Shown one piece after another: positions 1,573-60,530 of a stretch of DNA of 64,000 bases (the first letter of the stretch is position 1; each line of letters starts with the position of its first letter). The stretch spans positions 90,923-154,922 of the forward strand of contig MWCH01000001.1 in the NCBI GenBank assembly GCA_002069945.1, read 5' to 3'. The position numbers and the translations under genes are program-made. Below the pieces are notes generated by a model. It ran no database searches. It was given only the letters and a program-made list of their open reading frames with translations, and had not been told where the DNA came from. This DNA is from Microgenomates group bacterium ADurb.Bin219. Its GTDB lineage: Bacteria > Patescibacteriota > Microgenomatia > UM-FILTER-40-11.

Positions 1573-4500
1573 TTGAAAATGAAATTGCAACAAGCGAGAA
1601 CATTTTGGGGAAATGCAAAAATCAAACTTCCTTTAGTTGATTTATTGGCCGTTCAAAAACGTTCTTGGCAAAACTTTTTAAAAGAAGGCATTTGGGAGTC
1701 GATTCAAGAAATTAATCCGGTTGAAGATTTTACGGGAAAAAATTGGGAGCTCCAGTTTTTATCCTTTTCTTTTGATCAAGTTTCCCGTACTCCAGCCGAG
1801 GCGAAGAAAAAAGGTTTAAATTATGACGCTCCGTTAAAAGCAAAAGTCAAACTGATTAATAAGCAAAACGGAAAAGAGGTAATTCAGGAAGTTTTTTTGG
1901 GAGACGTGCCCCAGATGACTTCGGAAGGAACTTTCATCATTAATGGAGTTGAAAGATGTGTTGTCAATCAAATCATCCGTTCTCCGGGTGTTTTCTTTAC
2001 GGGTGAAGTTGATCCCGCTACCGGGAAAACTTTTTACAACGCGGAAATCCGGCCTGTTCACGGAACCTGGCTTGAGTTTTTGGTTTCCCGTAATGGAGTA
2101 GTTTCAGCCCGGGTCGACCGGCGGAGGAAATTTGCCGCCACGACTATTTTAAGAGCCATGGGCCTTTCAACCGATGAAGAAATTATAGAAGCTTTTTCCT
2201 GGAATTCAAGCAAAGAAAACAATCCCCAGAATGAAGAATTTTCATTTCTTCAAAAAACTCTTGATCACGATTCGGCCAAAACAACCGAAGAAGCAATTAT
2301 TGAAATTTATCGGAAGATGAGACCGGGCGAACCGGCAATTTTGGCCAACGCCCAGAGTTTCTTTAACGATTTGTTTTTCAACCCACGACGCTATAACCTA
2401 GGAAAGGTTGGCCGCTATAAGGTCAATAAAAGGTTAAAAATAGAAGTTCCCAATATTGAAAAAAATTATGTTTTAACCACCAAGGATGTGGTTGAAACCA
2501 TAAAATATTTGATTTCTTTACAGACTGGCAAGGGAGAGACTGACGATATTGACCATTTGGCGAACCGAAGGATTCGTTGCGTCGGTGAACAAGTGGCCCA
2601 GAGCGCTTTCCGGATCGGCCTTTTAAGATTGGAAAGAATGATTAAAGAAAGAATGAGTTTAATTTCAGCCGACGAAAAAGTTTTACCGACAACTTTAATC
2701 AATGCCCGTCCTTTGATTTCGGCTATTAATGAATTCTTCCGGTCAAATCAACTTTCAACAATTCTTGATCAAACCAATCCCTTGTCCGAATTGGACAACT
2801 TAAGACGACTTTCGGTTACGGGCCAGGGCGGGATTACCAGAGAAAGAGCTTCTTTCTCCATCAGGGACATTGACTCGTCTCAATATAGCCGAATTTGCCC
2901 TGTCCGTTCCCCGGAAGGTCCGAATATCGGACTGGTTACTTATCTTGCTCTTTTTGCCAATGTTAACGATTACGGATTTTTGGAAGCTCCTTACCGGAAA
3001 ATTATAAAGGAAAAATCAGGAGCCGCGATAAAGATGAAAGTTACCGACGAAATTGTTTATCTCCAGGCGGATGACGAAAAGGAATATTACATTACACACG
3101 CAAAAGTTAATGTCGACGAAAAAGGTTATATTACCGACAAATGGGTTCCTGTTCGTTATCAGGGGGGATTTACGGAAACCAGTGTCGAAAAAGTTTCTTT
3201 TATGGATGTTGCTCCGTCACAGGTTGTTGGCATGTCTGCATCTTTAATTCCCTTTTTGGCTAATGACGAGGCGAATCGAGCCTTAATGGGCACTCACATG
3301 CAGTGCCAAGCGGTTCCGCTTTTGGCTCCGGAAGCGCCAATGGTAGGAACAGGGATGGAAGCGGTTGTAACCCAGACAACAAAGAAAATCGTTAGAGCAA
3401 GACATTCGGGGAAAATAGTTTATGCGGACGCGAGAAAAGTTGTTTTAAGGGTTAGCGGTAAAGTTAAAAAAGATTTACCGGAAGAGGAAAATATTGAAAT
3501 TGAAGGCAATTTGGAAACTTATTACTTGGATAAGTTTTCTCGGACTAACCCCTACGGAACCTGTTATTCTCAGCGGTTGGTGGTAGAGACCGGAGAAGAA
3601 GTTAAGGAAGGCGATCTCTTGATTGACGGCCCGGCTTCGGAAAAAGGCGAATTGGCCTTGGGAAGAAACTTGGTAATCGCTTACTGCTCTTTTGAGGGTT
3701 TGGGTTTTGAAGATGCGATTATTATTTCTCAAAGATTGGTGAAAGAAGACGTTTTCACCTCAATTTCTATTGAAGAATACGAAACTCAGGTAGTTGATAC
3801 CAAGCTCGGTCCCGAAGAGTTAACTCGCGATATTCCCAATGTGAGCGAACAGGATTTGGCTAATTTGGGCGAAGACGGCATTGTTGTTATCGGAGCGGAA
3901 GTTCAGCAAAATGATATCCTGGTCGGAAAAATTGCTCCAAAAGGGGAAACGGAACTTTCGGCCGAAGAAAGGTTGTTGCGAGCGATTTTTGGTGAAAAGG
4001 CTAGAGAAGTTCGGGATACCAGTTTAAGGATGCCTCACGGCGAAAGAGGAACCGTTATTGACATTCAGATTCTTGATCGGGAAAAAGGAGACGAACTGGA
4101 ACCGGGAGTAAACATGACGATTAAGGTTAAGGTTGCCCAGATAAGAAAAATTACCGAAGGAGATAAATTGGCCGGAAGACACGGAAACAAAGGGGTTATT
4201 TCCAAAATTGTTCCCGTTTACGACATGCCTCATTTAGAAGACGGTACCCCGGTTGATATTATTATTTCCCCTCTTTCGGCCTTGGCCAGAATGAATTTGG
4301 GTCAGCTTTTGGAAGCTCATCTTGGCTGGCTTTGTAAAAAGGAAAATCTTAAGGTTTCGGTTCCGGTTTTTGAGAAAACCAATGAAGATTTGATTTGGCA
4401 GGAATTTGAAAAAATGGGTTTCCCCAGTGACGGCAAGGTTACTCTTTATGATGGCCGGACAGGAGAACCCTTTGACCAAAAAGTGACTGTCGGCGTTGCT

Positions 4501-5000: not shown

Positions 5001-8000
5001 ATGATGAAAGGTATTGTCGATTTCAAATCTCTACAAATTAAATTAGCCTCGCCCGAGGAAATTAAAGGCTGGTCTCACGGAGAAGTGACCAAGCCTGAAA
5101 CGATAAATTACCGGACCTTGAAGCCGGAAAAAGACGGTCTTTTTTGCGAAAAGATCTTCGGTCCGACAAAGGATTGGGAGTGTTATTGCGGAAAATACAA
5201 GAGAATCCGTTATCGGGGTATCGTTTGCGATAAGTGTGGCGTTGAAGTAACTCTTTCGCGGGTAAGAAGAGAAAGAATGGGCCATATCAATTTAGCCTGT
5301 CCGGTCGCTCATGTTTGGTATTTTCGAGGAGCCCCTTCAAAAATTTCTTTACTTTTGGATATTGCTCCCAAAAGCCTGGAAGGAGTCATTTATTTTGCTC
5401 AATATATTGTTACGGAAGTTAATGAGGAAGAAAGAAAAGAAGCGGTAGACAAAATAAATCAGTATCTGGAGGAAAAATTGATTGATTTAGAGAAGGAAAC
5501 GGAAAAAAGATTAAAAGAGGCCGAAGACACCAACGGAGACAAGATAAAAGAGATGAAAAAGAGAGTCAAAAATCCGGAGCAAGTTGCCTTGGCCACCGAA
5601 GAGCTAAATCTTTCTTTAAGACAAAAAATTCAGCAGATCAAGGAAGAAAAAGCCGAAGAAGAAGAAGATATTAAAAGAGGTTTTTCTCTTTTGGTTGATA
5701 AAGCCAGGGGATTAAGAATGATGTCTATTATCTCTGAAGACGACCTTTTCCGCCTGAGAGAGGCTAAGGCTGATCATTTTATCAAAGTTGGTATGGGAGC
5801 GGAAAGTTTACTGGAGATTATCAAGAAGATTAATCTTAAGAAAATGGAAGAAGAATTGAAAGAACAGGTTTTGAAAACTTCAGGACAAAAACACGCCAAA
5901 GCTTCCAAGAGATTAAGGATCGTTGAAAAAATGGTTAAAGCCGGGATTAATCCTTCATGGATGATTCTGACTGCTTTGCCGGTAATTCCTCCTGATTTGC
6001 GGCCGATGGTTCAGCTGATCGGAGGTCGTTTCGCTTCAAGCGATTTGAACGATCTTTTGCGTCGGGTGATTAACCGGAACAACCGGCTTAAACACTTGGT
6101 TGATTTGGGAGCGCCGGAAATTATTTTGAGAAACGAGAAAAGAATGCTTCAGGAAGCGGTTGATGCTCTCATTGATTCGGCTAAGGCGGTCAGAGAAAAA
6201 AGAAGAGTAAAGAAAATCAAAATGAGATCGCTTTCGGATATGTTGAGGGGTAAACAAGGACGATTTAGGCAAAATCTTTTAGGGAAAAGGGTTGATTATT
6301 CGGGCAGGTCGGTTATTGTTGTTGGTCCGGAATTGAGATTGAATCAATGCGGCCTTCCCAAGGAAATGGCTCTAGAAATGTTTAAGCCTTTTGTTTTAAG
6401 GGAGATGATTCTTAAGGGAGTTGCTCCGAATGTTCGCAGTGCTCGCAATATGTTGGAAAGAAGGCCGCCGGAAATTTTTGATATTTTGGAAGAAATTACC
6501 AAAAATCACCCAGTGATGCTTAACCGGGCGCCGACTCTTCATAAGTTGGGAATATTGTCTTTTTATCCGATTTTGATTGAAGGAAACGCTATCCGGATTC
6601 ATCCTTGCGTCTGCTCTGGATTTAATGCTGATTTTGACGGAGACCAGATGGCGGTTCACGTTCCTCTTTCTTCGGCTTCGCGGGAAGAAGCGTGTCGCTT
6701 GATGCTTCCGAATAAGAATTTGTTAAGGCCGTCCGACGGCTCTCCGATTACGGTTCCGGCGACAAAAGAGATGTCCTTGGGAATTTATTATTTGACTTCA
6801 ACCCCCTTAAATTTACCGGAAAGCAAGATTATTTGCGCCGATTTTAGCGAAGCCATTTTTGCTTACCAAAGCGGAAAAATCCAACTGAGGCAAAAAATTA
6901 AAGTTCATTACCACGATTCTTTATTGGAAACCACAGTCGGAAGAATCTTTTTCAACGAAGTAATTCCCGAATCTTTGAGATTTATTAACGAACCGGTAAA
7001 ACAAAGCACGGTTAAACAGCTTTTTGAGAAGGCCTTCAAGACTTGCAGCGAAGAAGAATTGATGAAGATGGTTGACAGCTTGAAAGATTTGGGCTTTTGG
7101 TCCGGAACTATTTCCGGAGTTTCCCTTTCGGTTAAAGATTGTGAGCTTTTGCCGGAAAAACAGGCGATCATTGAGGATTCAAACCGAAAAGTGGCGGAAA
7201 TTGAAGAAAATTTCAAGCAAGGGTTAATTACCCAGGAAGAAAAAAAGAGGCTTTCTCAAGAAGTTTGGCTGGAAACAACGGAAGATTTAGCGGAAAAAAC
7301 CTGGGAAAAGTTTCATGAAGGCAATCCAATAAAGATCGTTATTGAGGCGGGAGTCGGCCGGATTTCCAAAGATACTTTAAAACAAATTTCGGCAATCAGA
7401 GGCTTGGTGGTTGATCCTTTGGGCAAGGTCGTAGATTTGCCGACTAAATCCAACTTTAGAGAAGGGCTTTCGGTTTTTGAGTATGTTACTACCACCAGGG
7501 GTTCAAGAAAAGGCTTAACCGATATGGCCTTAAAAACAGCGGATGCCGGTTATTTGACCCGGAAACTGGTTGATGTTGCCCATGATGCGATTATTCACGA
7601 AGAAGATTGTTTGACCAAAGAAGGGATTGAGATTATTAAATCCGGTCCCAGGGAAAAAGCTTTCTTAAAAAGAATTTTGGGTCGGATTTTGGCAAAAGAT
7701 TTGACAGATCCGAAGACCAAAAAAATAATTTTCAAGAAAGGTGAAGAAATTGACGAGAAAAAGTTAAAGACGATTGAAGAAAGCGCTGCTGTCTCCGTTT
7801 GGGTCAGATCTCCCTTAACCTGCGCGTCAAAGTTTGGTTTTTGCGCTGCCTGTTACGGATGGGATTTTTCTACCCGGAAAATGGTGGAAATCGGGACTCC
7901 GGTTGGGGTTATTACCGCTCAATCAATCGGCGAGCCGGGAACACAATTAACCTTAAAATCAAAACATACGGCCGGAGTTGTCGGTTTGGATGTAACTCAG

Positions 8001-9202: not shown

Positions 9203-9682
9203 ATGCCAAGATCGGGAGCAATTAAAAAAAGAGAAGTCCTTGAAGACTCTGTTTATAAAAGTAAACTGATCAGTAAATTAATTAACCGAACGATGCGCTC
9301 CGGGAAAAAACAGGTGGCGGAAAAACAAATTTACCGTGCTTTTGATTTGGTTAAAGAAAAAAGCAAGAGTGATCCGCTGGTTGTTTTTAACAAGGCGATG
9401 GATAATATCCGGCCCTTGATGGAGGTTAGACCGAGACGAATCGGCGGCGCCGCTTATCAGGTGCCGATGCCGGTAAGGGGTGATCGCCGAGATTCTTTGG
9501 CCATTCGTTGGTTGATTACGGCCACTTTAGCCAGGCCGAGCCGGGAATACCATACTTTTGCCGAAAAACTGGCCGCCGAGTTGATTGATGCTTCCAACGG
9601 TCTTGGTGGCGCAGTTAAAAGAAGAGAAGATACCCACAAGATGGCCGAAGCAAACAAAGCTTTCTCGCACTTCCGCTGGTAA
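9203..9682 (+). CDS. rpsG: 30S ribosomal protein S7
   Basis: S7 motifs (GKKQVAEKQIY, RRIGGAAYQVP). Confidence 0.95.
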   Translation: MPRSGAIKKREVLEDSVYKSKLISKLINRTMRSGKKQVAEKQIYRAFDLVKEKSKSDPLVVFNKAMDNIRPLMEVRPRRIGGAAYQVPMPVRGDRRDSLAIRWLITATLARPSREYHTFAEKLAAELIDASNGLGGAVKRREDTHKMAEANKAFSHFRW

Positions 9683-33346: not shown

Positions 33347-34375
33347 ATGAAATTTATTAAAACGGTAATTTACGGGGGAGTTTTACTTTGTTTCGGGATT
33401 GCTTTTTTTTGGTTTTACCATCAATTTAGGGGTACGTCGGAAAAGGGTTCGAGCCAGAGGTTTATTATCGGGCTCAATACGACCAACGGGCAACTGGCGG
33501 ACGATCTACAAAATAAGGGCTTTATCAAAAACAAAAAACTTTTTTGGATATTTCTCAATGTTGTCTGTCGGCAAAGGAAAACTTGTTTAAAAGGAGATCC
33601 AAAATTGGAGCCCGGTGCATATTTGATTTCCCAGAAAATGAATCTTTATCAATTGGCCGGGACTTTGGCTTACGGTCCATTTCAGAAATGGGTTTTGATT
33701 CCGCCGGGAAAAAGAAAGGAGCAAACCGCCTTAATTTTACAGAAGGCCTTAAATTGGTCCGATCAAATTGTCCTTTCTTTTATTAACGAAGCCGAAGAGG
33801 GATATTTATTTCCGGATACTTATTTGATTGATATTGACGCCGATCCCCAACAGGTTGTCCAAAAATTGCTTAACAATTTTAACGAAAAATTTGATGCTCA
33901 GTTGCAAAAAGATTTATTGGCCAATAATATTCGTAACGACACGGCTTTAAAAATTGCCTCTTTGGTGGAAAGAGAAAGCGGCGGCGACGAAGACAAGCCT
34001 TTAATTGCCGGTATTATTTGGAATCGGGTGGAAAAGAAAATGAGGTTGGAGATTGATGCTACGGTTCAGTATGCCATCGTTTCTCAACAGATTGCTACTC
34101 TAGCCGCCAGTTATCAGCCGCCAACAGCCGACTTTAATTTTTGGCCGATTTTGGGTCCCGGTATAGTCAGGACAATTGACTCGCCTTATAATACCTATCG
34201 GATTAAGGCTTTACCGCCCGGACCGATTTGTTCTCCTGGCCTTTCTTCGCTTAAGGCGGTAGCTTATCCGGCGGAAACCGACGCCTTATATTATCTTCAT
34301 TCCGGCGATAAACAAATTCATACGGCCAAAACCTATAAAGAACACCTGGAAAATATAAAAAAATATCTGGAATAA
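33347..34375 (+). CDS. mltG: MltG/YceG-family endolytic murein transglycosylase (paralog 2)
   Basis: N-terminal transmembrane anchor, DATVQYAIVS, and the same Pro/Gly-rich C-terminal motifs as the 343..1419 copy. Confidence 0.75.
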   Translation: MKFIKTVIYGGVLLCFGIAFFWFYHQFRGTSEKGSSQRFIIGLNTTNGQLADDLQNKGFIKNKKLFWIFLNVVCRQRKTCLKGDPKLEPGAYLISQKMNLYQLAGTLAYGPFQKWVLIPPGKRKEQTALILQKALNWSDQIVLSFINEAEEGYLFPDTYLIDIDADPQQVVQKLLNNFNEKFDAQLQKDLLANNIRNDTALKIASLVERESGGDEDKPLIAGIIWNRVEKKMRLEIDATVQYAIVSQQIATLAASYQPPTADFNFWPILGPGIVRTIDSPYNTYRIKALPPGPICSPGLSSLKAVAYPAETDALYYLHSGDKQIHTAKTYKEHLENIKKYLE

Positions 34376-34443: not shown

Positions 34444-35496
34444 ATGAGCGAAACCGTTAACAAACCTTCTGTCGAGCAACAAATTGCCGGTTATCGCCAA
34501 TTTGCCGAAGAACAAGCGAAAGAGGGTTATCGTGTAGGAGAAAAGGTTTTAAAACAGCTTGAGGAAGAATCCCAAAAAAGATTGGCGGTCAAAGAATCTC
34601 CCGGGAAAAAGATTTTGATTATTGATTGTTCCGAGGGAATCGGGCTTGGTCCATTGACGATGATTGCCGACCAGCGGCTTACCGGAGCCAACTGCCGGGT
34701 AATTGATATTGATAAAAATCAGGAGTTGCCGACTGATTTAACCGATGTTGCCGGAGTTATTATTACCGGCTCTCCGGCGGATACAAACGAGAAAGAAGCA
34801 AAAAAGTGGATTGGCCAATTGGAAAAATTTATCCAAGAAGCAAGCAACAAAGTTCCGGTTCTTGGAATTTGCTTTGGAATGCAGGCGGAAATGGAGGCTA
34901 CAGGCAGGGAAATAATTAATCTTAAAAAAGTTGACGAGAGAGGAAGACCGAGACCGGCCGGAAATAGAAAGAGCAGTAACTGGGGTTTGAATAAAGTCTC
35001 TCTTTGGCTTGATAAACAATCTCCCCATCGGGATCATCCTCTTTTCCGCGGTTTAAAATTTCAAGAAGATAAGGAAAGGAATAGGTCTTGTGTTTTTGAT
35101 GTGCCTGTTCATCATTCCTACAGTCTAAAAATGCAAACGGGAACGGCGGAAACCGATCGTAAAAACCTCATTGGGGTCGAATATCCGGAAAACGCCGGTT
35201 ACGCAGGAATTAATATTAATGGTAATCTGATTGGTGTCCAATTTCATCCGGAAAGATTGACCGAAATTGGCTTCCTTTGCGCTTATACGGTGGCCCAGGT
35301 TACAGGAGAGGAGATTTTAAATAGCAAAGAAAGCTCTGAAGAAAAATTGAGACAATTGCAGGAATGGAAGGAGAGACTGGCCCAGCTTAAGCAATTTAAG
35401 GAAGAATGGATAGGCGGTCCCAAAAAGGAAGAAACTCCCCCGGGTTTAAAAATTCTTCAAAATTTTGTTAGCTTGGCCTTAGATGTAGAAAAATAA
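34444..35496 (+). CDS. Stand-alone class-I glutamine amidotransferase-like (GATase1 / peptidase C26-like) protein with a large insertion and a coiled C-terminal tail
   Basis: Nucleophile elbow VLGICFGMQ and His/Glu dyad GVQFHPE. Strong SD GAGGAGGT upstream. Confidence 0.7.
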   Translation: MSETVNKPSVEQQIAGYRQFAEEQAKEGYRVGEKVLKQLEEESQKRLAVKESPGKKILIIDCSEGIGLGPLTMIADQRLTGANCRVIDIDKNQELPTDLTDVAGVIITGSPADTNEKEAKKWIGQLEKFIQEASNKVPVLGICFGMQAEMEATGREIINLKKVDERGRPRPAGNRKSSNWGLNKVSLWLDKQSPHRDHPLFRGLKFQEDKERNRSCVFDVPVHHSYSLKMQTGTAETDRKNLIGVEYPENAGYAGININGNLIGVQFHPERLTEIGFLCAYTVAQVTGEEILNSKESSEEKLRQLQEWKERLAQLKQFKEEWIGGPKKEETPPGLKILQNFVSLALDVEK

Positions 35497-35497
35497 T

Positions 35498-36400
35498 TTA
35501 GGATTTGTGGAGAAATAGATTAAGGCTCGGCTTGTTTATCGTTTTCTCTGGTTTTATTAATTCGTTTAAAATATCGTTGAGCTTAGATTCTGGGAAAAGA
35601 TCTTTGGGAAAAATTTTTATTAGTCTTAGATCATTCTTCTTGATAATTTTTAATTTCTTCATCATTAATTTATCATAAGTTTTAAGCGCACCGGTTAACC
35701 CGAAAAATTCAATAAAGATGTCATTAACTTTGAAATCTGCGGTGAATAAGGTATTTAAATATTTAGCGTTTTTTAAGTGAAAGATTTTTTTGGAGAAAAG
35801 CCAATCGTCAATTATTTTTTCAGACAGAGAATCGCAACGGTGACCATCTTTAGCCGTAAATTTTTTCGCAAATTTTACCGGATTGGGTTCAAATCCGGCC
35901 GCTAATACAGCTTTGTTCCAGGTTCCAAACCGAAATCTGGCAGCCTTCCAATGAAAATATTCTCTTTTAAAAGGAATTCTTCCTCTTCCTTTATAAAATT
36001 TTTTAATTTCTTGAATTATTTGCTCTTTGGGAATAATGGTCGTTTTAGGAAGACAAATAGACGAGCAATATTTTCTCCGTCCGGAAAAATAAGACCCACA
36101 ATTGGGGCAAATCTTTAATTTTGGTTTTCTTTTTCGTGACCTTTGGTTATTAACGACAGCGGCACAGGAACGGGAACAAAAACATATTTTTGATATAGAA
36201 ATTTCATGTAAAGATCTGAAAAATATTTTATTGCAGTTGGGATTTCCACATTGAAGCGAAACCATTGCTCTCTTGGCCAAGGAATGACAATTGCCGGAAC
36301 AATATTGTTTCCAGCCAAATTTTTTAGCTTCATTTATTCTTCTTAATTCTCTCGGAAAGATTTTTTTACAATAATCACAGGCTACTTCAACAATTGTCAC
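35498..36400 (-). CDS. Putative selfish or homing-type nuclease: three zinc ribbons, a homing-endonuclease-associated repeat and a DUF559/Vsr-like PD-(D/E)xK-type tail
   Basis: Three C-x2-C...C-x3-C ribbons (CDYCKK..CSGNC, CGNPNCNK..CSRSC, CPNCGSY..CSSIC). FGTWNKAVLAAGF matches the FGSWNnALkaAGL repeat. The C-terminus DSLSEKIIDDWL...ADFKVNDIFIEFFG resembles the DUF559 motif (T.aE..LW...vDF...iE.DG). Confidence 0.5.
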   Translation of the reverse strand: MTIVEVACDYCKKIFPRELRRINEAKKFGWKQYCSGNCHSLAKRAMVSLQCGNPNCNKIFFRSLHEISISKICFCSRSCAAVVNNQRSRKRKPKLKICPNCGSYFSGRRKYCSSICLPKTTIIPKEQIIQEIKKFYKGRGRIPFKREYFHWKAARFRFGTWNKAVLAAGFEPNPVKFAKKFTAKDGHRCDSLSEKIIDDWLFSKKIFHLKNAKYLNTLFTADFKVNDIFIEFFGLTGALKTYDKLMMKKLKIIKKNDLRLIKIFPKDLFPESKLNDILNELIKPEKTINKPSLNLFLHKS

Positions 36401-36443
36401 TAAGCCATAATACCAAATAAAACCCGAAGGTTACAATAAGCAA

Positions 36444-36470
36444 AAAAACCAGTTTGAAGCTGGTTTTTTT
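36444..36470. terminator. Bidirectional intrinsic terminator
   Basis: AAAAAAA-CCAGTTTGAAGCTGG-TTTTTTT: a perfect 6-bp stem flanked by A- and T-tracts. Confidence 0.6.
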
Positions 36471-36476
36471 GGCCTT

Positions 36477-36549
36477 TCGGAGGTGACGGTACTGCCCCGT
36501 CCGCCTCACGGACCCCATCCGTGCGTTCTACTATCTGAACTAACCTCCG
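36477..36549 (-). tRNA. tRNA-like cloverleaf, anticodon GGG (Pro) with U33 and G37, but non-canonical D-loop (no G18) and T-loop (GGCAGUA instead of TPsiCRA); atypical tRNA, tRNA pseudogene or tRNA-like element
   Basis: Manual fold of the minus strand gives CGGAGGU-UA-GUUC-AGAUAGUA-GAAC-G-CACGG-AUGGGGU-CCGUG-AGGCG-GACGG-GGCAGUA-CCGUC-ACCUCCG-A. All four stems are fully Watson-Crick. The plus-strand reading has C33, so the minus strand is preferred. No encoded CCA. Confidence 0.35.
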
Positions 36550-36645
36550 TAATAAATTTTTCCTTGTTGAATTTTATCATTTATTGTGGAAAAATTAAAA
36601 CGCTTTCGTTTTAATAATTTTTTCCTGCCCGGAAAGTGAATTGAT

Positions 36646-37725
36646 ATGGCCAATAAAGATAAAGATCCCAAAGAAGTCAATGAAGCCAAGATCTCCCCTA
36701 AAATTCAAGCCGTCCGCTTAGCGATGGAACAGATCGAAAAACAATACGGCAAGGGTTCCATAATGCGTCTAGGCGAACAGCCGGCCGATAGGTTAGCGAT
36801 AGACGTTATTCCAACCGGATCAATCGCCTTGGATATTGCTTTAGGGGTTGGCGGTGTTCCCCGGGGAAGAATTATTGAGATTTACGGTCCGGAAGCTTCG
36901 GGAAAAACAACGGTGGCTCTTTCCATTATTGCCCAGGCCCAAAAAACGGGCGGAACCGCCGCTTTTGTTGACGCGGAACACGCTTTGGATCCGATTTGGG
37001 CCCAGGAATTGGGAGTAAATTTGGACGATCTTTTGGTTTCCCAGCCGGATACGGGCGAGCAGGCTTTGGAAATTGTGGAAACCTTGGTTCGTTCCGGAGC
37101 GGTTGACGTCATCATTATTGATTCGGTGGCGGCTTTGGTTCCTCGGGCGGAGATTGAAGGCGAGATGGGCGATGCGATGTTGGGAGTTCAGGCAAGATTG
37201 ATGTCCCAGGCATTGCGGAAGTTGACGGGAGCGATTTCCAAATCAAAAACAGCGGTGATTTTTACCAACCAATTGAGGCAAAAAATCGGGATTATGTTCG
37301 GTAATCCGGAAGTAACTCCCGGAGGGTTGGCCCTTAAATTTTATTCTTCCGTCAGGTTGGATACCCGAAAGATTGAAAGCTTGAAGGAAGGCGATAATGT
37401 TGTCGGCTCCCGCCATCGGGTCAGAGTTGTCAAGAATAAAGTTTCCCCGCCTTTTAAAGTGGCGGAATTTGATATTTATGCCAAGGGAGGTATTTCCAAA
37501 ACTGGCGGGATTTTTGATGTTGCCTTGGAATTGGGAATTACCAGCAAGTCGGGCGCTTTTTTCCGCTACGGCGAAACCATGCTTGGCCAAGGCCGGGCTG
37601 CCGCCACGATGTTTTTGGAGGAAAACCCCAAAATTACCAAGGAAATTGAAGAAAAAATTTGGAAGTTTGTCAAAGAAGGCAAGGCAGTGGAAAAAAAGGT
37701 AATGGGCGAAGAAGCGGAAGAATAA
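36646..37725 (+). CDS. recA: Recombinase RecA
   Basis: GPEASGKTT Walker [11 protein letters not shown]1/L2 loops; 359 aa. An inverted repeat AAAACG-N4-CGTTTT lies about 45 nt upstream. Confidence 0.97.
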
Positions 37726-37732
37726 TTTACCT

Positions 37733-38365
37733 GTGGCAATAGTTACCAAAATCAAGCTCCAAAAAACAAAAAAAAGGTTAAATATTTTTCTTGACGGTAA
37801 ATACGCTTTTAGCCTTTTGCCGGAAGAAGCGGTTAAAGAAAAAGTTAAAATTGGAGCGGAAATTTCTTCGGAAAAAATTCAAAGTCTTATCAAGGAGAGT
37901 GATTTTCAGGCCTCCTTGGAAAAAGCCTACAATTTTCTTTCTTTCCGGCCGCGTTCTTTGGCGGAAGTAACCGATTATTTGACCAAAAAAGGAATAGGAG
38001 AAGAAACAGGCAAGCAAGTAATTGACAAATTGAAGGAATTGCGGATGGTTGACGATTTGAAGTTTAGCCAATGGTGGTTGGAGCAAAGGCAGGCTTTTCA
38101 TCCGGTCGGGAAAAAACTATTGGCCTTGGAATTAAAAAAGAAAGGCATTGCTCGGGAAATTATTGACCGGGTCTTGGCCGACCAACGGGGAACCGATGAA
38201 ATCTTGACGGCCAGACAGCTTTTGTCAAAAAAGTCCGGTCGCTGGCAGAATTTAACTTTCGCGGAATTCAGGAAAAAAGCCGGCGATTTTCTTTTAAGGA
38301 GGGGTTTTTCCTGGGAGACGGTTAACAACCTGATAACCGAATTTAAGAAAGACTTTTCCGGTTGA
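37733..38365 (+). CDS. recX: RecA regulator RecX (GTG start)
   Basis: LDGKYAFSL...GAEIS.E....L.. and three-helix repeats, immediately downstream of recA. Confidence 0.75.
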   Translation: MAIVTKIKLQKTKKRLNIFLDGKYAFSLLPEEAVKEKVKIGAEISSEKIQSLIKESDFQASLEKAYNFLSFRPRSLAEVTDYLTKKGIGEETGKQVIDKLKELRMVDDLKFSQWWLEQRQAFHPVGKKLLALELKKKGIAREIIDRVLADQRGTDEILTARQLLSKKSGRWQNLTFAEFRKKAGDFLLRRGFSWETVNNLITEFKKDFSG

Positions 38366-38570: not shown

Positions 38571-40082
38571 ATGTCGTTATTCGGTGATTTGGCCGGGTTA
38601 TTTAAAACTACCGGCAAAACGGAAAAAGTAAAAACTAAGCCCCAGTCTTTTGAAAATAAACCCAAACCCCAACCGCAACTGGTTAATTCTCCCCGGGCGC
38701 CAAAAGTTGATTTGGAAAAACTGGAAAAGTTTGAGGTTCAGGCTCGGGAAATTATTGCCGAAGCCAGGGAAGAAGCGGCTAAAATCAGGGAAGAGGCAGC
38801 CAGAACAAGAACGGAAATTTTCAGCAAGGAAGCGGAAGTGGATCGCCGCGCCGGTGCGATTGAAGAACGGGAGAAAATATTAAGAGTGGGCAAGGAAGAA
38901 GTTGACCGAAAATTAGCCGAAGTTGAGGAAGTAAAAAAACAACAATTGGCCAAATTGGAAAGAATTGCCAATTTAAAGAAAGACGAAGCGCGGCAACTGA
39001 TTTTGGACGCGACGGAGAAAAGATTGGCCGAGGAGGTCGCCAAAAAAATTACCGAAGCGGAGATTCAAATTAAAGCGACGGCCGAGGAAAAAGCCAAAGA
39101 AATCTTGATTGATGCGATGAAACACGGAGCGGTTGATTATGTTCCGGAATATACGGTTTCCAGTATTAAGCTTCCGGACGAAGAGATGAAGGGAAGAATC
39201 ATTGGCAAGGAAGGCCGCAATATCCGCAGTTTTGAAGTGGCTACTGGTGTGGAAGTGGAATTGGACGAAACCTTGGATATCCGGCTTTCGTCTTTTGATC
39301 CGGTAAGAAGAGAAATTGCCAAGAGATCATTGGAAAAACTGATTAAGGACGGCCGGATTCAGCCCCAAAGAATTGAAGAAATTGTGGCCAAGACCAAACA
39401 GGAAGTGGACCGGATTTTATTGGAAGAAGGAGAAAAACTTTGCCATTCCTTAAAAGTTTACAATTTACATCCAGATTTGGTCAAACTTCTTGGCCGCTAT
39501 AAATTTCGTTTTTCTTACGGCCAAAATATGATTGTTCATACTTTGGAAGAAACTCAAATAGGGGTGGCGATTGCCCAGGAATTGAAAGCCAATGTCGCCG
39601 TTGTCCGCTTAGGCTGTCTTCTTCACGATATCGGTAAAATCGTGACCGAAGAGGAAGGAACACATATTCAATTGGGAGTTGATTTGCTTAAAAAGTATCG
39701 TTTACCCGAATCGGTGGTTAATTGCGTTGCCGAGCATCACGAAGATAAACCTTTTTCTTCAATTGAATCGGCGATTACCTGGGTAGCGGATGCCATTTCC
39801 GGCAGCCGCCCGGGCGCCCGTTATGAACCGCACGAAGATTATTTAAAACGGATGACCCACGTTGAAGAAGTGGTCAAATCGTTTGTGGAAGTTGCCGAGG
39901 TGGCCGCTTACCAGGCCGGTCGGGAAGTTCGGGTAATTGTTAAACCGGAAACGGTTTCCGATTCCGAGTTGACGGTTTTGACGGAAAAAATTGCCAAAAA
40001 ACTGGAAGAAGATGCCAAATGGGCCGGTCAGATAAAAGTGACGGCCATCAGGGAAACAAGAGCGGTCGGAATTGCTAAATAA
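38571..40082 (+). CDS. rny: Ribonuclease Y (KH + HD)
   Basis: Coiled-coil N-terminus, KH (GRIIGKEGRNIRSFE), HD (LLHDIGK...EHHED). The recA-recX-rny order mirrors the Firmicutes-type arrangement. Confidence 0.9.
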   Translation: MSLFGDLAGLFKTTGKTEKVKTKPQSFENKPKPQPQLVNSPRAPKVDLEKLEKFEVQAREIIAEAREEAAKIREEAARTRTEIFSKEAEVDRRAGAIEEREKILRVGKEEVDRKLAEVEEVKKQQLAKLERIANLKKDEARQLILDATEKRLAEEVAKKITEAEIQIKATAEEKAKEILIDAMKHGAVDYVPEYTVSSIKLPDEEMKGRIIGKEGRNIRSFEVATGVEVELDETLDIRLSSFDPVRREIAKRSLEKLIKDGRIQPQRIEEIVAKTKQEVDRILLEEGEKLCHSLKVYNLHPDLVKLLGRYKFRFSYGQNMIVHTLEETQIGVAIAQELKANVAVVRLGCLLHDIGKIVTEEEGTHIQLGVDLLKKYRLPESVVNCVAEHHEDKPFSSIESAITWVADAISGSRPGARYEPHEDYLKRMTHVEEVVKSFVEVAEVAAYQAGREVRVIVKPETVSDSELTVLTEKIAKKLEEDAKWAGQIKVTAIRETRAVGIAK

Positions 40083-58278: not shown

Positions 58279-59160
58279 ATGAACTTTATGCGTTTTAAAT
58301 GGTTTTACTTTTTGCTTTCGGCAATCGTAATTTTACCGGGATTTTTTTCCCTGGTTAAATACGGGCTAAGGCCTTCGGTTGATTTTACCGGCGGCAGTGT
58401 TTGGGAATTGAAATTTAAAGAGACGGCAATAGAAGATAAACGGGCGGTTATTGATAAGGTTTTAAAGGAAAGCAAGGTGGAAGTTAATTCTCTGCAGTTT
58501 TTTGGAGAAAAGCAGATTTTAGTTAAGATGAAACCCGTAACCAAAGAAGATGTTTCTTCGGCCAAGGCCGTCTTGGCAAAAGAGCTGGAAGAAATGCCGG
58601 AAGAAATTCGTTTTGAGGTTGTCGGCCCGGTTTTGGGAGGCGAATTGGTCAAAAAGACGATTACGGCCGTTATTTTGGCCTCGGCGGTGATTTTGATATA
58701 TATTGCCTGGCAGTTTAAGGATTTGATGTTTGGCGCCTGTGCGGTTTTGGGTATGTTTCATGACACTTTGGTTATTTTGGGAATATTCAGCCTTTTGGGG
58801 CATTATTCTGGAGTGGAGATTGATACCTTATTTGTGACCGCAATGCTGACGATTCTTTCTTTTTCCGTTCACGATACTGTTGTCGTTTATGACCGGATCC
58901 GCGAATCCCAGAAAAGGTATCCGAAGGTTCCTTTTGCCGAACTGGTAAACAAGGCGGTAACGGAGACATTGCCCCGTTCTATCAATAATTCAATGACTAT
59001 CATTTTTATGTTGATTGCCCTTTGGCTTTTGGGAGGAGAAACAATCAAATGGTTTGCTTTTGCTCTCTTGGTGGGAACCGTTTCGGGAACTTATTCCTCA
59101 ACTTTTACTTCGGCTCCTTTATTGGTGGTTTGGCAACAAATAAGATCCCGCAGAAATTAA
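58279..59160 (+). CDS. secF: Protein translocase subunit SecF
   Basis: SecF fold; GILADL-like FHDTLVILGIFSL... Confidence 0.92.
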   Translation: MNFMRFKWFYFLLSAIVILPGFFSLVKYGLRPSVDFTGGSVWELKFKETAIEDKRAVIDKVLKESKVEVNSLQFFGEKQILVKMKPVTKEDVSSAKAVLAKELEEMPEEIRFEVVGPVLGGELVKKTITAVILASAVILIYIAWQFKDLMFGACAVLGMFHDTLVILGIFSLLGHYSGVEIDTLFVTAMLTILSFSVHDTVVVYDRIRESQKRYPKVPFAELVNKAVTETLPRSINNSMTIIFMLIALWLLGGETIKWFAFALLVGTVSGTYSSTFTSAPLLVVWQQIRSRRN

Positions 59161-60530
59161 TTACTTGAAGTTTTAACTTCTTTTAGAAGGACCGATCGTT
59201 GATTTTTTATTTCTCCTTTTTCCACTTTTTCAAAAATTTGGTTTAAAATTTGTCCGACTTGCTTACCCGGTTTAAGACCGAGAATTTTCATTACGTCATA
59301 GCCGTCTATTTTTAAATCGGAAACGGAAAAAGGCTGTTTTTGAACTTCAATTAATCTTTGCTTGAATTTTTCCAAGCGCCAGGAAGTTTCCCTTGCGCCG
59401 CCGCCGAGACGGTCGCCGATACGCAGATCCAACATGTTCTGTAAATTTTCCTTGCCGACATTGCGGATGAATCTTCGGATAGCCGAATCGGTCTGTCTTT
59501 CGTCGCAGGTAAATTGGTGCCAACGGACCAAGTTTGTCAGTTTTTCCTTTTCCGTCTTGGAAAATTTGAGACGGTCGGCCAGATTTTCGGCCAGGCGGGC
59601 ACCCGCCATTTCGTGGTTGTAAAAAGTCCGGTTTTCGCCCTCGCCGCGGACGACTACCGGCTTACCGATATCGTGGATTAAAGTGGCCAGCCTGACAACC
59701 GGATCTTTGCTCGGGCAATACTTTAAAGAAAGCAAGGAATGATTCCAAACATCATAAAGATGGTGGCCTTTTTGGGCCATGCCGTAGCCCTTAATCAATT
59801 CGGGAATAATATAGGCAAGTAAGCCGGAGGTCATCAGGAGGGTTATTCCCTCGCTGGGATAATCGCTGGCCAATATTTTAAAAAGTTCTTCTCTGACTCT
59901 TTCCCGGGAAATTTTGTTTAGCAAAGAAGCGTTTTCTTTTATACCGCGGAAAGTATTATCTTCAATAACAAAGCCAAGCTGGGAAGCCAGCCGAACGGCC
60001 CTTAACATTCTTAAAGCATCTTCGGCAAATCTTTCGCTCGGGTTGCCGACAGCCCGGACAATTTTGTTTTTTAAATCTTCAAGTCCGCCGAATAAGTCAA
60101 TTAATTCAAATTCTTCTTCTTTTTGTTTCTTTCCAATGACAATGGCACTGATAGTAAATTCCCGGCGTTGTAAATCTTCTTCCAGGCTTTTGCCCCAAAA
60201 AACTTGGTCCGGATGGCGACTGTCGGAATAACCTCTTTCGCCGCGGTAAGTGGTAATTTCGTATTTTTCTTCCTTTTTACCTCTTTTGACAATTAAACCG
60301 ACGGTACCGAAACGGTTGTCGTAAAAACTGTCTGGGAAAAGAGTTTGGATTACTTCCGGATGGGCGTTCGTCGTAAAATCACAATTAATCGGGATTTTAT
60401 TAACCAGAATGTTTCTGACGCCGCCGCCGACCAGATAAATTTCATAACCGGCTTTTGTAAATTTTTCAAAAACCATCCTGACTTCCGGAGGAATTTTTTG
60501 AGCATTTTTGACTGGAAGAATGGTGCGCAT
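59157..60530 (-). CDS. cca: CCA-adding tRNA nucleotidyltransferase / poly(A) polymerase family with a C-terminal HD domain
   Basis: GGAVRD-like head (YLVGGGVRNIL), RRDFT-like, HD (LIHDIGK). Confidence 0.88.
   Translation of the reverse strand: MRTILPVKNAQKIPPEVRMVFEKFTKAGYEIYLVGGGVRNILVNKIPINCDFTTNAHPEVIQTLFPDSFYDNRFGTVGLIVKRGKKEEKYEITTYRGERGYSDSRHPDQVFWGKSLEEDLQRREFTISAIVIGKKQKEEEFELIDLFGGLEDLKNKIVRAVGNPSERFAEDALRMLRAVRLASQLGFVIEDNTFRGIKENASLLNKISRERVREELFKILASDYPSEGITLLMTSGLLAYIIPELIKGYGMAQKGHHLYDVWNHSLLSLKYCPSKDPVVRLATLIHDIGKPVVVRGEGENRTFYNHEMAGARLAENLADRLKFSKTEKEKLTNLVRWHQFTCDERQTDSAIRRFIRNVGKENLQNMLDLRIGDRLGGGARETSWRLEKFKQRLIEVQKQPFSVSDLKIDGYDVMKILGLKPGKQVGQILNQIFEKVEKGEIKNQRSVLLKEVKTSSN

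What the first reader, a model, noticed from the sequence alone, without database searches (positions are those of the whole stretch)
36477..36549. Atypical tRNA-like cloverleaf (anticodon GGG) with a non-canonical T-loop
All four stems are perfectly Watson-Crick, with a 7-nt anticodon loop AUGGGGU (U33, G37). However, the D-loop lacks G18 and the T-loop is GGCAGUA rather than TPsiCRANY. This is a coordinated loss of the D/T elbow contacts, and no CCA is encoded. It lies directly upstream (on the minus strand) of a bidirectional terminator and the nuclease-like gene. It could be a highly divergent tRNA-Pro, a degenerate tRNA pseudogene marking an old integration site, or a tRNA-like structural element.
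Basis: seen in the sequence. Interest (0 to 1): 0.55.

Follow-up and report, generated by a model that had tools for sequence, protein, structure and literature searches.

The report
Hidden proline tRNA with rebuilt elbow
This is a real, conserved proline tRNA gene of an uncultured (CPR/Microgenomates) bacterium in which the two loops that form the tRNA "elbow" have changed together, so standard tRNA finders miss it.

Summary
The cloverleaf is real. On the minus strand of 36477-36549 all 21 stem pairs are Watson-Crick, and it is the only such cloverleaf in the 64-kb window (none in 10 shuffles). ARAGORN in standard mode and Rfam RF00005 miss it.

It is not a pseudogene or an integration scar. 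Fifteen distinct homologues from metagenomes and MAGs keep every stem: 294/294 cells are paired and 14/21 pairs show double-sided compensatory changes. All keep the bacterial tRNA-Pro features I recall (C1-G72, A73, G35, G36, G37), and many have their own extended -10 promoter.

Across this clade a tRNA-Pro(GGG) gene sits divergent from recA. Some relatives carry a fully canonical allele there (GG D-loop, UUCRANY T-loop), so the atypical gene is the local tRNA-Pro(GGG).

The elbow is remodelled, not lost. G19-C56 is kept, G18/U55 becomes A18/G55 with perfect coupling, and U54/A58 becomes G54/G58. The resulting GGCAG loop resembles riboswitch and rRNA T-loops, which use G at position 2 and an intercalating adenosine.

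The two alleles are interspersed on a RecA tree. The same loop changes sit on three different stem backbones, which is unexplained.

The neighbouring 300-aa gene is a Vsr-like, homing-endonuclease-like protein. It lies next to tRNA-Pro(GGG) genes of both types.

The parts
36477..36549 (-). Atypical tRNA-Pro(GGG) gene, 73 nt, no encoded CCA
   Evidence: Sequence. Only cloverleaf in the window. 15 distinct homologues with 100% paired stems and 14/21 covarying pairs. Own covariance model R1 scores it 101 bits, and it is the only hit in the window.
36529..36536 (-). D-loop AGAUAGUA (A14 ... A18 G19 ... A21): G18 replaced by A, G19 kept
   Evidence: A18 is coupled with G55 in all 15 distinct atypical sequences, and G18 with U55 in the 6 canonical relatives tabulated.
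36514..36516 (-). Anticodon GGG (positions 34-36), flanked by U33 and G37
   Evidence: ARAGORN -mt calls Pro(ggg). CCC+CCU make up 43% of Pro codons in 18 window ORFs.
36490..36496 (-). T-loop GGCAGUA (G54 G55 C56 A57 G58 U59 A60)
   Evidence: The T-loop was not part of the search pattern, yet G55, C56 and A60 are invariant and G54 and G58 occur in 14/15. GGCAG resembles the rRNA T-loop GGAAG and G-at-position-2 T-loops.
36571..36579 (-). Extended -10 promoter element TGATAAAAT; its 3' end lies 21 nt upstream of the tRNA 5' end
   Evidence: TGNTA(A/G)AAT lies within about 40 nt upstream of the tRNA (9-mer starting 18-41 nt upstream) in 9 of the 16 atypical loci listed and 4/6 canonical loci. 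The generic promoter scan did not call it.
36441..36471 (-). Intrinsic-terminator-like hairpin with flanking A and U runs, 5 nt after the tRNA 3' end
   Evidence: 12-pair stem, U tail. The sequence is symmetric, hence 'bidirectional' by sequence.
36407..36436 (-). Promoter-like site for the downstream ORF (TTGTAA-18-TATTAT with TG), overlapping a conserved CTTCGGG motif
   Evidence: The motif TTGACAnCTTCGGGTTTTAT recurs downstream of the tRNA in L095, L098, L101, L126 and L128.
35498..36400 (-). 300-aa ORF: three Zn-ribbon-like CxxC...CxxxC units, an HNH_repeat, and a Vsr-like (EDxHD-type) nuclease domain. A homing-endonuclease-like gene.
36646..37725 (+). recA, the syntenic anchor, transcribed divergently from the tRNA
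   Evidence: The tRNA-Pro(GGG)/recA arrangement is conserved in relatives.
59157..60530 (-). CCA-adding enzyme gene (context: needed because CCA is not encoded)
   Evidence: The Pfam families PolyA_pol, PolyA_pol_RNAbd, HD and tRNA_NucTran2_2 are recorded for the identical gene in L122/L123. L122 is 99.99% identical to the window.

Best explanation
This is the organism's functional tRNA-Pro(GGG) gene. It is a lineage-specific allele in Microgenomates-type CPR bacteria whose D-loop/T-loop elbow has been rebuilt.

**Shown**
- It is an independent gene, transcribed divergently from recA. It has an extended -10 element upstream and a terminator hairpin directly after it.
- All four stems are maintained by compensatory evolution.
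- The tRNA-Pro identity nucleotides (C1-G72, A73, G35, G36) and G37 are invariant.
- It occupies the locus where close relatives carry a canonical tRNA-Pro(GGG).
- The same strain carries at least one canonical tRNA (Gln) and a CCA-adding enzyme gene.

**Inferred**
- It is processed, receives CCA post-transcriptionally, is charged by ProRS, and reads CCC/CCU.
- The elbow still folds as a T-loop but of the type seen in riboswitches and rRNA. G54-G58 would replace the U54-A58 closing pair. G55 would replace U55 at T-loop position 2. A18 rather than G18 would intercalate and contact position 55. The outer G19-C56 pair, the face read by the ribosomal L1 stalk and RNase P, would be retained.
- Because positions 54, 55 and 58 are G, the usual m5U54, pseudouridine-55 and m1A58 modifications cannot be made on this tRNA.
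For: **Real and non-random.**

**Conservation.** The same gene lies next to recA in L081/82 and L086/87. A loops-only metagenome pattern gave 23 loci, 22 of them perfect cloverleaves.

**Covariation.** 294/294 cells are paired, 14/21 pairs changed on both sides, and 0/500 shuffles reach this. RNAalifold independently returns the cloverleaf.

**Core tertiary pairings co-vary.** A9 goes with U12-A23 and G9 with C12-G23. The 15:48 pair co-varies as G:G, A:A or G:C. I judge this consistent with standard tRNA core triples.

**Orthology.** Canonical tRNA-Pro(GGG) sits at the same locus in L083-85, L112/113, L116/117, L118/119, L126/127 and L128. L083 and L112 have the same anticodon arm as several atypical copies.

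**18/55 coupling.** A18+G55 occurs in 15 distinct sequences and G18+U55 in 6.

**T-loop precedent.** Non-tRNA T-loops are YGNRA with an intercalating adenosine, and an rRNA T-loop GGAAG exists (bioRxiv 10.1101/2022.12.26.521914).

**Expression signals.**

**Same-strain context.** A canonical tRNA-Gln is present and a CCA-adding enzyme gene. CCC+CCU are 43% of Pro codons.
Against: - There is no expression, processing or charging data.
- RF00005 and standard ARAGORN reject the window copy.
- I could not inventory a whole genome. A second, canonical tRNA-Pro(GGG) elsewhere in atypical-allele genomes is not excluded. If tRNA-Pro(UGG) reads all CCN codons, the translational role could be dispensable.
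- The D-loop, anticodon loop and AGG of the variable loop were fixed by my search pattern, so their invariance among the metagenome hits is partly by construction. The independent finds L081, L086 and L124 agree.
- The 3D elbow model is inference from sequence analogy only.
Confidence: 0.8

Rival explanations
1. It is a dedicated non-translational (non-proteinogenic) tRNA. It would be charged with proline but diverted from the ribosome to some tRNA-dependent transferase, or used as a regulatory or decoy tRNA. This would parallel the S. aureus tRNA-Gly species that lack the conserved D/T-loop nucleotides and feed cell-wall synthesis.
For: - Loss of G18 and U55 is a stated hallmark of the staphylococcal non-proteinogenic tRNA-Gly (PMC4574755).
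- Identity elements for charging are kept.
- I recall that tRNA-Pro(GGG) is dispensable in some bacteria.
Against: - It replaces the canonical tRNA-Pro(GGG) at the orthologous locus instead of being an extra copy beside it.
- G19-C56 is retained, unlike in the staphylococcal species.
- The anticodon loop, including U33, G37 and the 32/38 pair, is invariant, as expected for decoding.
- No Fem-like, cyclodipeptide-synthase-like or other tRNA-dependent transferase gene was seen among the called neighbours. The linked ORF has a DNA-endonuclease fold.
Confidence: 0.1
2. The remodelled loops are a by-product of genetic conflict. The adjacent free-standing homing-endonuclease-like gene would cleave within the canonical tRNA-Pro(GGG) gene. 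The atypical D- and T-loop DNA sequences would be a cleavage-resistant allele that spreads with the endonuclease by gene conversion, as markers near SegB do in the T4 tRNA region. The tRNA would still work in translation.
For: - The ORF is a Vsr-like/EDxHD-type homing-endonuclease relative.
- It lies immediately 3' of tRNA-Pro(GGG) in 9 independent loci, including one (L109) with no recA hit within the 12.8-kb contig.
- Canonical and atypical alleles are interspersed on the RecA tree. The canonical L083-85 lineage nests in a clade of atypical lineages with 193/200 bootstrap support, and neither allele class is monophyletic in any of 200 replicates.
- SegB is a precedent (PMC2330249).
Against: - The endonuclease-like gene also sits next to canonical alleles (L126/127, L128), so canonical genes coexist with it.
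- Most atypical loci lack it.
- One or two silent-equivalent changes would be enough for immunity, whereas the changes here are structurally coupled (18/55, 54/58).
- No cleavage data exist.
Confidence: 0.1
3. It is a decaying tRNA pseudogene or a chance cloverleaf.
For: Standard detectors reject it. No CCA is encoded.
Against: - No stem mismatch occurs in 15 distinct sequences spanning RecA identities of 76-99%, and 14/21 pairs show compensatory changes.
- There is no comparable cloverleaf in shuffles.
- Promoter and terminator are conserved.
Confidence: 0.01

Closest known systems
Canonical bacterial tRNA-Pro(GGG) (orthologues in L083, L112, L117, L118, L126, L128; E. coli proL type)
   Same: - Cloverleaf of 73 nt with C1-G72, A73, G35, G36 and G37.
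- U8, A14, A21, G26, the C13-G22-G46 triple, G19, C56 and G53-C61.
- The same genomic locus, divergent from recA.
- An anticodon arm identical to some canonical relatives.
   Different: - G18->A, U54->G, U55->G, A58->G and position 60->A.
- In the main type also a purine-purine 15:48 pair, A9 and an A/U-rich D stem.
- Usually no encoded CCA, whereas L083, L112 and L117 encode it.
- It scores below RF00005 gathering, whereas canonical relatives score 52-64 bits.
Staphylococcus aureus non-proteinogenic tRNA-Gly (NP1, NP2, NEW)
   Same: Bacterial tRNAs that lack the conserved elbow nucleotides G18 and U55 yet are charged and functional (PMC4574755).
   Different: - The staphylococcal species also lack G19/C56, exist alongside proteinogenic isoacceptors, and serve peptidoglycan synthesis.
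- Here G19-C56 is kept, the gene replaces the canonical one at its locus, and no transferase partner is seen.
Mitochondrial type II tRNAs and tRNA-Pyl
   Same: They lack the G18, G19 and T-Psi-C consensus and rely on alternative D/T or D/variable contacts (PMC7609411). ARAGORN recognises the element only in mitochondrial mode.
   Different: Here the loop sizes, stem lengths, U8-A14, 15:48, 9:12-23 and G19-C56 are all standard and the stems are G/C-rich. Only specific elbow nucleotides are exchanged.
Non-tRNA T-loop motifs (FMN/cobalamin riboswitch YGNRA T-loops; rRNA T-loop GGAAG)
   Same: G at T-loop position 2 with an intercalating adenosine. A G...G first/fifth position occurs in the rRNA loop GGAAG. 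The atypical tRNA has GGCAG plus A18.
   Different: Those motifs occur in riboswitches and rRNA, not in a tRNA elbow. The equivalence here rests on sequence analogy and is not structurally tested.
Free-standing homing endonucleases next to tRNA genes (phage T4 SegB) and the Vsr-like homing endonuclease I-Bth0305I
   Same: The neighbouring 300-aa ORF has the I-Bth0305I/Vsr fold and an HNH_repeat. Like SegB (PMC2330249), it lies beside a tRNA gene.
   Different: - SegB belongs to the GIY-YIG family and is phage-borne.
- This family is chromosomal, CPR-restricted as far as seen, about 283 aa long, and consistently tied to tRNA-Pro(GGG)/recA.
- Its activity and target are unknown.

Membership tests
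tRNA (class I elongator; Rfam RF00005) | Cloverleaf with 7-bp acceptor, 4-bp D, 5-bp anticodon and 5-bp T stems, a 7-nt anticodon loop and a 7-nt T-loop | tested here: met
tRNA (class I elongator; Rfam RF00005) | Stems maintained by compensatory substitutions across homologues | tested here: met
   294/294 cells paired, 14/21 pairs with double-sided changes, 0/500 shuffles reach this.
tRNA (class I elongator; Rfam RF00005) | Conserved core nucleotides U8, A14, A21, U33, G53-C61, G19-C56 | tested here: met
   All are invariant in 15 sequences. Those in the D-loop and anticodon loop were fixed by the search pattern for 12 of them.
tRNA (class I elongator; Rfam RF00005) | Elbow consensus G18 and U54-U55 ... 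A58 | tested here: not met
   A18, G54 (A in one type), G55 and G58 (U in one type).
tRNA (class I elongator; Rfam RF00005) | Score at or above the RF00005 gathering threshold, or a standard ARAGORN call | tested here: not met
   No RF00005 hit at gathering or at E<=10. ARAGORN standard mode calls only the L081-type variant. The control canonical relatives score 64 and 52 bits.
tRNA (class I elongator; Rfam RF00005) | Mature transcript with 3' CCA, aminoacylated | not testable with these tools
   No RNA data are available. A CCA-adding enzyme gene is present in the window.
Bacterial tRNA-Pro identity (ProRS, TrmD) | G35, G36, A73 and G72 (C1-G72), and G36-G37 for m1G37. The element set is from my own knowledge of E. 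coli ProRS and TrmD. | tested here: met
   All are invariant. C1-G72 and A73 were not in the search pattern.
Non-proteinogenic tRNA (S. aureus tRNA-Gly type) | An extra gene copy coexisting with a proteinogenic isoacceptor that has the same anticodon | tested here: inconclusive
   At the conserved locus it replaces the canonical gene, and there is no second copy in the window. Whole genomes could not be inventoried.
Non-proteinogenic tRNA (S. aureus tRNA-Gly type) | Loss of G18, G19, U55 and C56 | tested here: not met
   Only G18 and U55 are lost. G19 and C56 are invariant. Comparison from PMC4574755.
T-loop structural motif, G-at-position-2 type | A five-nucleotide loop with G at position 2, a non-canonical 1-5 pair, and an adenosine intercalating between positions 4 and 5 | tested here: inconclusive
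   The sequence fits (GGCAG/GGCGG/AGCGU with A18). The 3D geometry is not testable here.
Vsr-like / EDxHD homing endonuclease (for the neighbouring ORF) | Vsr-type nuclease fold with conserved acidic and histidine catalytic residues, plus DNA-binding modules | tested here: met
Vsr-like / EDxHD homing endonuclease (for the neighbouring ORF) | Site-specific DNA cleavage and homing | not testable with these tools
   Only the sporadic presence or absence at a fixed site is suggestive.

The most novel reading that the evidence does not exclude
The tRNA elbow of tRNA-Pro(GGG) exists in two discrete, internally co-adapted states in Microgenomates. One is canonical (G18/U54-U55/A58). The other is riboswitch-like (A18/G54-G55/G58). 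Lineages would have switched between them repeatedly: the same five or six loop substitutions arose or were transferred at least three times onto different stem backbones. The driver would be conflict (the adjacent homing endonuclease, or an elbow- or T-loop-directed tRNA nuclease or modification enzyme) or a non-ribosomal use of this tRNA.
Probability: 0.15. Interest if true: 0.8.

Novelty: new variant of a known kind. Interest (0 to 1): 0.6.

Why it matters
- **A rare exception.** To my knowledge G18 and U55 are among the most invariant nucleotides of cytosolic tRNAs. The exceptions found in the literature searched here are tRNA-Pyl, mitochondrial tRNAs and the staphylococcal cell-wall tRNAs.
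- **A natural experiment.** A free-living-type bacterial elongator tRNA has exchanged G18/U55 and U54/A58 for A18/G55 and G54/G58, with perfect coupling, while keeping everything else canonical. This tests which elbow features the translation and processing machinery really needs. It also suggests that the tRNA T-loop can be replaced by the T-loop flavour used in riboswitches and rRNA.
- **An annotation gap.** ARAGORN and Rfam RF00005 miss the gene, and tRNAscan-SE was not available to test. Pipelines that rely on such detectors would report tRNA-Pro(GGG) as missing in these CPR genomes, which biases completeness and codon-capacity estimates. The covariance model built here, or the loop pattern, recovers it.
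- **A tractable evolutionary puzzle.** The patchy allele distribution and the tight linkage to a Vsr-like homing-endonuclease-like gene can be followed up experimentally.

Tried and rejected
1. **The single genome-contig scan was spent badly.** I used RecA as the query. RecA is too conserved, and the 80 loci returned were from assorted phyla at 60-68% identity. They served only as negative controls for the covariance model.
2. **Rfam permissive mode** around the element gave only sub-threshold chance hits, such as RefA9 and OrzO-P on the terminator hairpin.
3. **Endonuclease specific to the atypical allele: rejected.** I had thought the endonuclease-like ORF occurs only beside the atypical allele, as a resistant allele hitch-hiking with it. 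Three further look-ups found the ORF beside canonical tRNA-Pro(GGG) in two of three new lineages. I keep the idea only as a low-probability rival.
4. **ORF300 phylogeny** does not separate the alleles. It is star-like at 45-62% identity.
5. **Viral origin: no support.** A viral-contig scan for the atypical anticodon-loop plus T-loop pattern gave three hits, all chance matches in G+C-rich coding DNA.
6. **Organism names.** Cluster look-ups gave no useful names. The taxonomic placement rests on source names of RecA and ORF300 homologues: Shapirobacteria, Gottesmanbacteria, Daviesbacteria, Patescibacteria group.
7. **Literature.** Eight searches found no description of this tRNA variant. The library is limited to open-access papers and bioRxiv.
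8. **Other tRNAs of the same genome.** Extending beyond the window start (L120) found none. Extending beyond the end (L122) found one canonical tRNA-Gln.

Full report
**1.

Read on the minus strand, window 36477-36549 is:

CGGAGGU UA GUUC AGAUAGUA GAAC G CACGG AUGGGGU CCGUG AGGCG GACGG GGCAGUA CCGUC ACCUCCG A.

- All 21 stem pairs are Watson-Crick.
- The anticodon loop is A32 U33 G34 G35 G36 G37 U38.
- The D-loop has A at position 18 and the T-loop reads GGCAGUA. No CCA follows.
- The minimum-free-energy fold is essentially the cloverleaf; it differs only in extending the anticodon stem and shifting the T arm (z = -3.7).
- A purpose-written scan for class-I cloverleaves with at most one mismatch found this as the only hit on either strand of the 64-kb window. 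It found none in ten Markov shuffles.

Standard detectors do not see it:

- ARAGORN finds no tRNA in the window, even at relaxed thresholds. Only its mitochondrial mode reports mtRNA-Pro(ggg), at exactly these coordinates.
- Rfam finds nothing at gathering threshold. RF00005 does not appear even at E<=10 on an 83-nt slice.

**2. Context**

The organism is a CPR/Patescibacteria bacterium of the Microgenomates type. RecA and ORF300 homologues carry the source names Shapirobacteria, Gottesmanbacteria and Daviesbacteria.

The local gene order is:

| Feature | Coordinates | Strand |
|---|---|---|
| mltG/yceG | 33347-34375 | + |
| GATase-like ORF | 34444-35496 | + |
| 300-aa ORF | 35498-36400 | - |
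| terminator hairpin | 36441-36471 | - |
| the tRNA | 36477-36549 | - |
| recA | 36646-37725 | + |
| recX | 37733-38365 | + |
| rny | 38571-40082 | + |

An extended -10 element, TGATAAAAT, lies at 36579-36571; its 3' end lies 21 nt upstream of the tRNA 5' end.

**3. It is a conserved gene, not a relic**

*Finding homologues.* I took RecA relatives from the protein database and fetched their contigs.

- L081/82 (RecA 85% identical) and L086/87 (83%) carry the same element at the same place. They show compensatory changes in the acceptor, anticodon and T stems.
- A metagenome scan then used a pattern that specified only loop nucleotides and left every stem free. It returned 23 loci, of which 22 are perfect cloverleaves and one is a chance match.
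- A further, more divergent member (L124/125, Daviesbacteria) was found independently through the neighbouring ORF. It has a 9-nt D-loop AGAUAGUUA and a T-loop GGCGGAA.

*Covariation.* On the 14 distinct sequences of the first alignment, 294 of 294 cells are standard pairs. Fourteen of 21 pairs have changes on both sides, none has a one-sided change, and no shuffle of 500 reaches these values. RNAalifold predicts the cloverleaf on its own.

*Caveat.* The D-loop, anticodon loop and AGG were fixed by the search pattern. The following were free and are nonetheless conserved:

- T-loop positions: G55, C56 and A60 are invariant, and G54 and G58 occur in 14/15 (A57 in 13/15).
- C1-G72 and A73.
- All stems.

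*Core tertiary pairings co-vary.*

- A9 accompanies U12-A23 and G9 accompanies C12-G23.
- C13-G22-G46 is constant.
- The 15:48 pair co-varies as G:G (12 sequences), A:A (2) or G:C (2).

I judge this consistent with standard tRNA core triples, which argues for a normal L-shaped core.

**4. It is the local tRNA-Pro(GGG)**

- The identity set that I recall for bacterial ProRS (G72, A73, G35, G36) and the G36-G37 element for TrmD are invariant.
- Throughout this clade a tRNA-Pro(GGG) gene lies upstream of, and divergent from, recA.
- In L083-85, L112/113, L116/117, L118/119, L126/127 and L128 that gene is fully canonical. Its D-loop is AGUUGGUA or similar and its T-loop is UUCRANY. L083, L112 and L117 also encode CCA.
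- L083 and L112 share their acceptor stem and whole anticodon arm with the atypical L093 and L096.
- As a control, RF00005 scores the canonical L084 and L117 genes at 64 and 52 bits in the same run in which seven atypical loci give no hit.
- My covariance model scores atypical genes at 86-102 bits and canonical relatives at 44-76 bits. It finds only one hit in the window.

Same-strain context:

- A flank from the same strain (L122, 99.99% identical over 13.4 kb) carries a canonical tRNA-Gln(CUG) about 6 kb beyond the window end. Its D-loop contains GG and its T-loop is UUCGAAU. At least this one other tRNA in the strain has the ordinary elbow.
- The window encodes a CCA-adding enzyme (59157-60530). 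This fits the absence of an encoded CCA.
- CCC and CCU together make up 43% of proline codons in 18 window ORFs.

**5. What changed, and how the elbow probably works**

Comparing atypical with canonical alleles gives these defining substitutions:

| Position | Canonical | Atypical |
|---|---|---|
| 18 | G | A |
| 54 | U | G (A in one type) |
| 55 | U | G |
| 58 | A | G (U in the type with A54) |
| 60 | pyrimidine | A |

- A16 also occurs in a canonical allele (L128), so it is not diagnostic.
- The 18/55 coupling is perfect in the sample: A18 with G55 in 15 distinct sequences and G18 with U55 in the 6 canonical ones tabulated.
- The 54/58 pair co-varies as G/G or A/U.

A study of T-loops gives the relevant background (bioRxiv 10.1101/2022.12.26.521914):

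- T-loops outside tRNA follow YGNRA, with G at position 2.
- Nature almost exclusively uses an adenosine to intercalate between positions 4 and 5.
- A distinct rRNA T-loop, GGAAG, exists.

The atypical tRNA loop GGCAG together with A18 therefore looks like the tRNA-type T-loop (U55 plus intercalating G18) exchanged for the general type (G55 plus intercalating A18). The outer G19-C56 pair is kept. This structural reading is inference; nothing here tests it.

One direct consequence follows: m5U54, pseudouridine-55 and m1A58 cannot be installed on this tRNA.

**6. Distribution is patchy, and the origin is unexplained**

- On a RecA neighbour-joining tree the canonical-allele lineage L083-85 nests inside a clade of atypical-allele lineages (window, L081/82, L106) with 193/200 bootstrap support.
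- Neither allele class is monophyletic in any of 200 replicates.
- This is a single-gene tree from the adjacent gene, so it is indicative only.

The three atypical types each resemble a different canonical tRNA in their stems more than they resemble one another:

| Atypical type | Closest canonical | Stem identity |
|---|---|---|
| B (L092) | L126 | 35/42 (acceptor 14/14, D stem 8/8) |
| C (L124) | L117 | 35/42 (D stem 8/8, T stem 10/10 including a G-U) |
| A (L093) | L083 | 34/42 |

Comparisons between different atypical types give only 20-30/42. Either the same coupled loop changes arose several times, or the loops have moved between alleles. I cannot decide between these.

**7. The neighbouring gene**

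The 300-aa ORF has these features:

- Three CxxC...CxxxC units, which I read from the sequence as Zn-ribbon-like.
- A Pfam HNH_repeat, the homing-endonuclease-associated repeat (E = 1e-11).
- A C-terminal domain with invariant D185, H187, D190, E194, D198, H208, D222 and E231.

The family has 323 detected members of about 283 aa. In every context I could inspect it lies immediately 3' of, and co-oriented with, a tRNA-Pro(GGG) gene:

- Atypical: window/L107, L093, L098 (frameshifted), L101/L114, L109 and L124.
- Canonical: L126 and L128.

The gene is therefore linked to tRNA-Pro(GGG) in general, not to the atypical allele. Most atypical loci lack it. A free-standing homing endonuclease whose homing site is this locus is the simplest reading. 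Whether it has anything to do with the allele switching is open.

**8. Comparison with what is known**

- The staphylococcal non-proteinogenic tRNA-Gly species lack G18, G19, U55 and C56 (PMC4574755).
- tRNA-Pyl and mitochondrial type II tRNAs also lack these consensus nucleotides (PMC7609411).
- None of these shows the specific A18/G55 and G54/G58 exchange with G19-C56 retained in an otherwise canonical elongator tRNA.
- I found no description of this variant in the searchable literature.
- No copy was found in viral contigs.

**9. Verdict**

This is a genuine, conserved tRNA-Pro(GGG) gene with a remodelled elbow, most probably functional in translation. It is a new variant of a known kind.

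- It is of real interest to tRNA structural biology, and to genome annotation because the detectors tested here miss it.
- Expression, charging and 3D structure remain untested.
- Whether it is the only GGG isoacceptor in its genome also remains untested.

Noticed in passing
window 35498-36400 (-); also L093 895-1746, L101 5359-6198, L109 8096-8947, L114 8873-9736, L124 8001-8846, L126 8001-8852, L128 8001-8810: A CPR-restricted family of about 283 aa (three Zn-ribbon-like units, an HNH_repeat and a Vsr-like/EDxHD-type nuclease domain; 323 members detected). It always lies immediately 3' of a tRNA-Pro(GGG) gene, canonical or atypical, and usually next to recA. It is probably a free-standing homing endonuclease with this locus as its homing site. 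The L098 copy is split into two reading frames.
   Followed up: partly
window 36417-36436 (-); L095, L098, L101, L126, L128 just downstream of the tRNA: A conserved motif TTGACAnCTTCGGGTTTTAT (TTGTAACCTTCGGGTTTTAT in the window) lies between the tRNA and the endonuclease-like ORF. It overlaps a promoter-like -35 element. Its role, as promoter or as a 5'-UTR element, is unknown.
   Followed up: no
L095 ~3035-3104 (+) and L112 ~9315-9384 (-), upstream of the tRNA: Tandem heptamer-like repeats (GTAGACN / GTAGTCN) fill the spacer upstream of tRNA-Pro(GGG) in one atypical and one canonical locus. They are absent from the window.
   Followed up: no
window 34444-35496 (+): A class-I glutamine-amidotransferase-like ORF (PF00117) with a long charged C-terminal extension sits between yceG and the endonuclease-like ORF. 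The relative L089 has yceG directly abutting the tRNA, so this gene is a lineage-specific insertion in a variable spot.
   Followed up: no
L112 184-9920 and L118 9551-9910: In canonical-allele relatives a 23S_rRNA_IVP/bAvd-like four-helix-bundle ORF lies between tRNA-Pro(GGG) and recA. In L112 an island lies on the tRNA's 3' side, with RadC, an N6/N4 methyltransferase, an OLD-family nuclease, a helicase and an HTH protein. The locus is an insertion hot spot.
   Followed up: no
window 400-1419 (+) and 33347-34375 (+): There are two MltG/YceG-family paralogues within 33 kb, one before rpoB and one after the ribosomal protein/rpoA block.
   Followed up: no
window 6418-6447 versus L120 16019-16028: The same-strain contig L120 is 100% identical to the window except for a 30-nt versus 10-nt segment inside rpoC. 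In L120 rpoC is called as two ORFs, whereas in the window it is one 1241-aa ORF. This is probably an assembly or strain indel.
   Followed up: no
L122 19428-19499 (+), about 6 kb beyond the window end: A canonical tRNA-Gln(CUG) lies inside a region that one gene call annotates as a 707-aa resolvase ORF on the opposite strand. That ORF call is probably spurious or overlaps the tRNA.
   Followed up: no
whole window 1-64000: Apart from the atypical tRNA-Pro, neither ARAGORN nor a cloverleaf scan finds any tRNA gene in 64 kb. At my rough assumption of about 1 Mb and about 45 tRNAs for a CPR genome, about three would be expected, so the region is somewhat tRNA-poor.
   Followed up: partly
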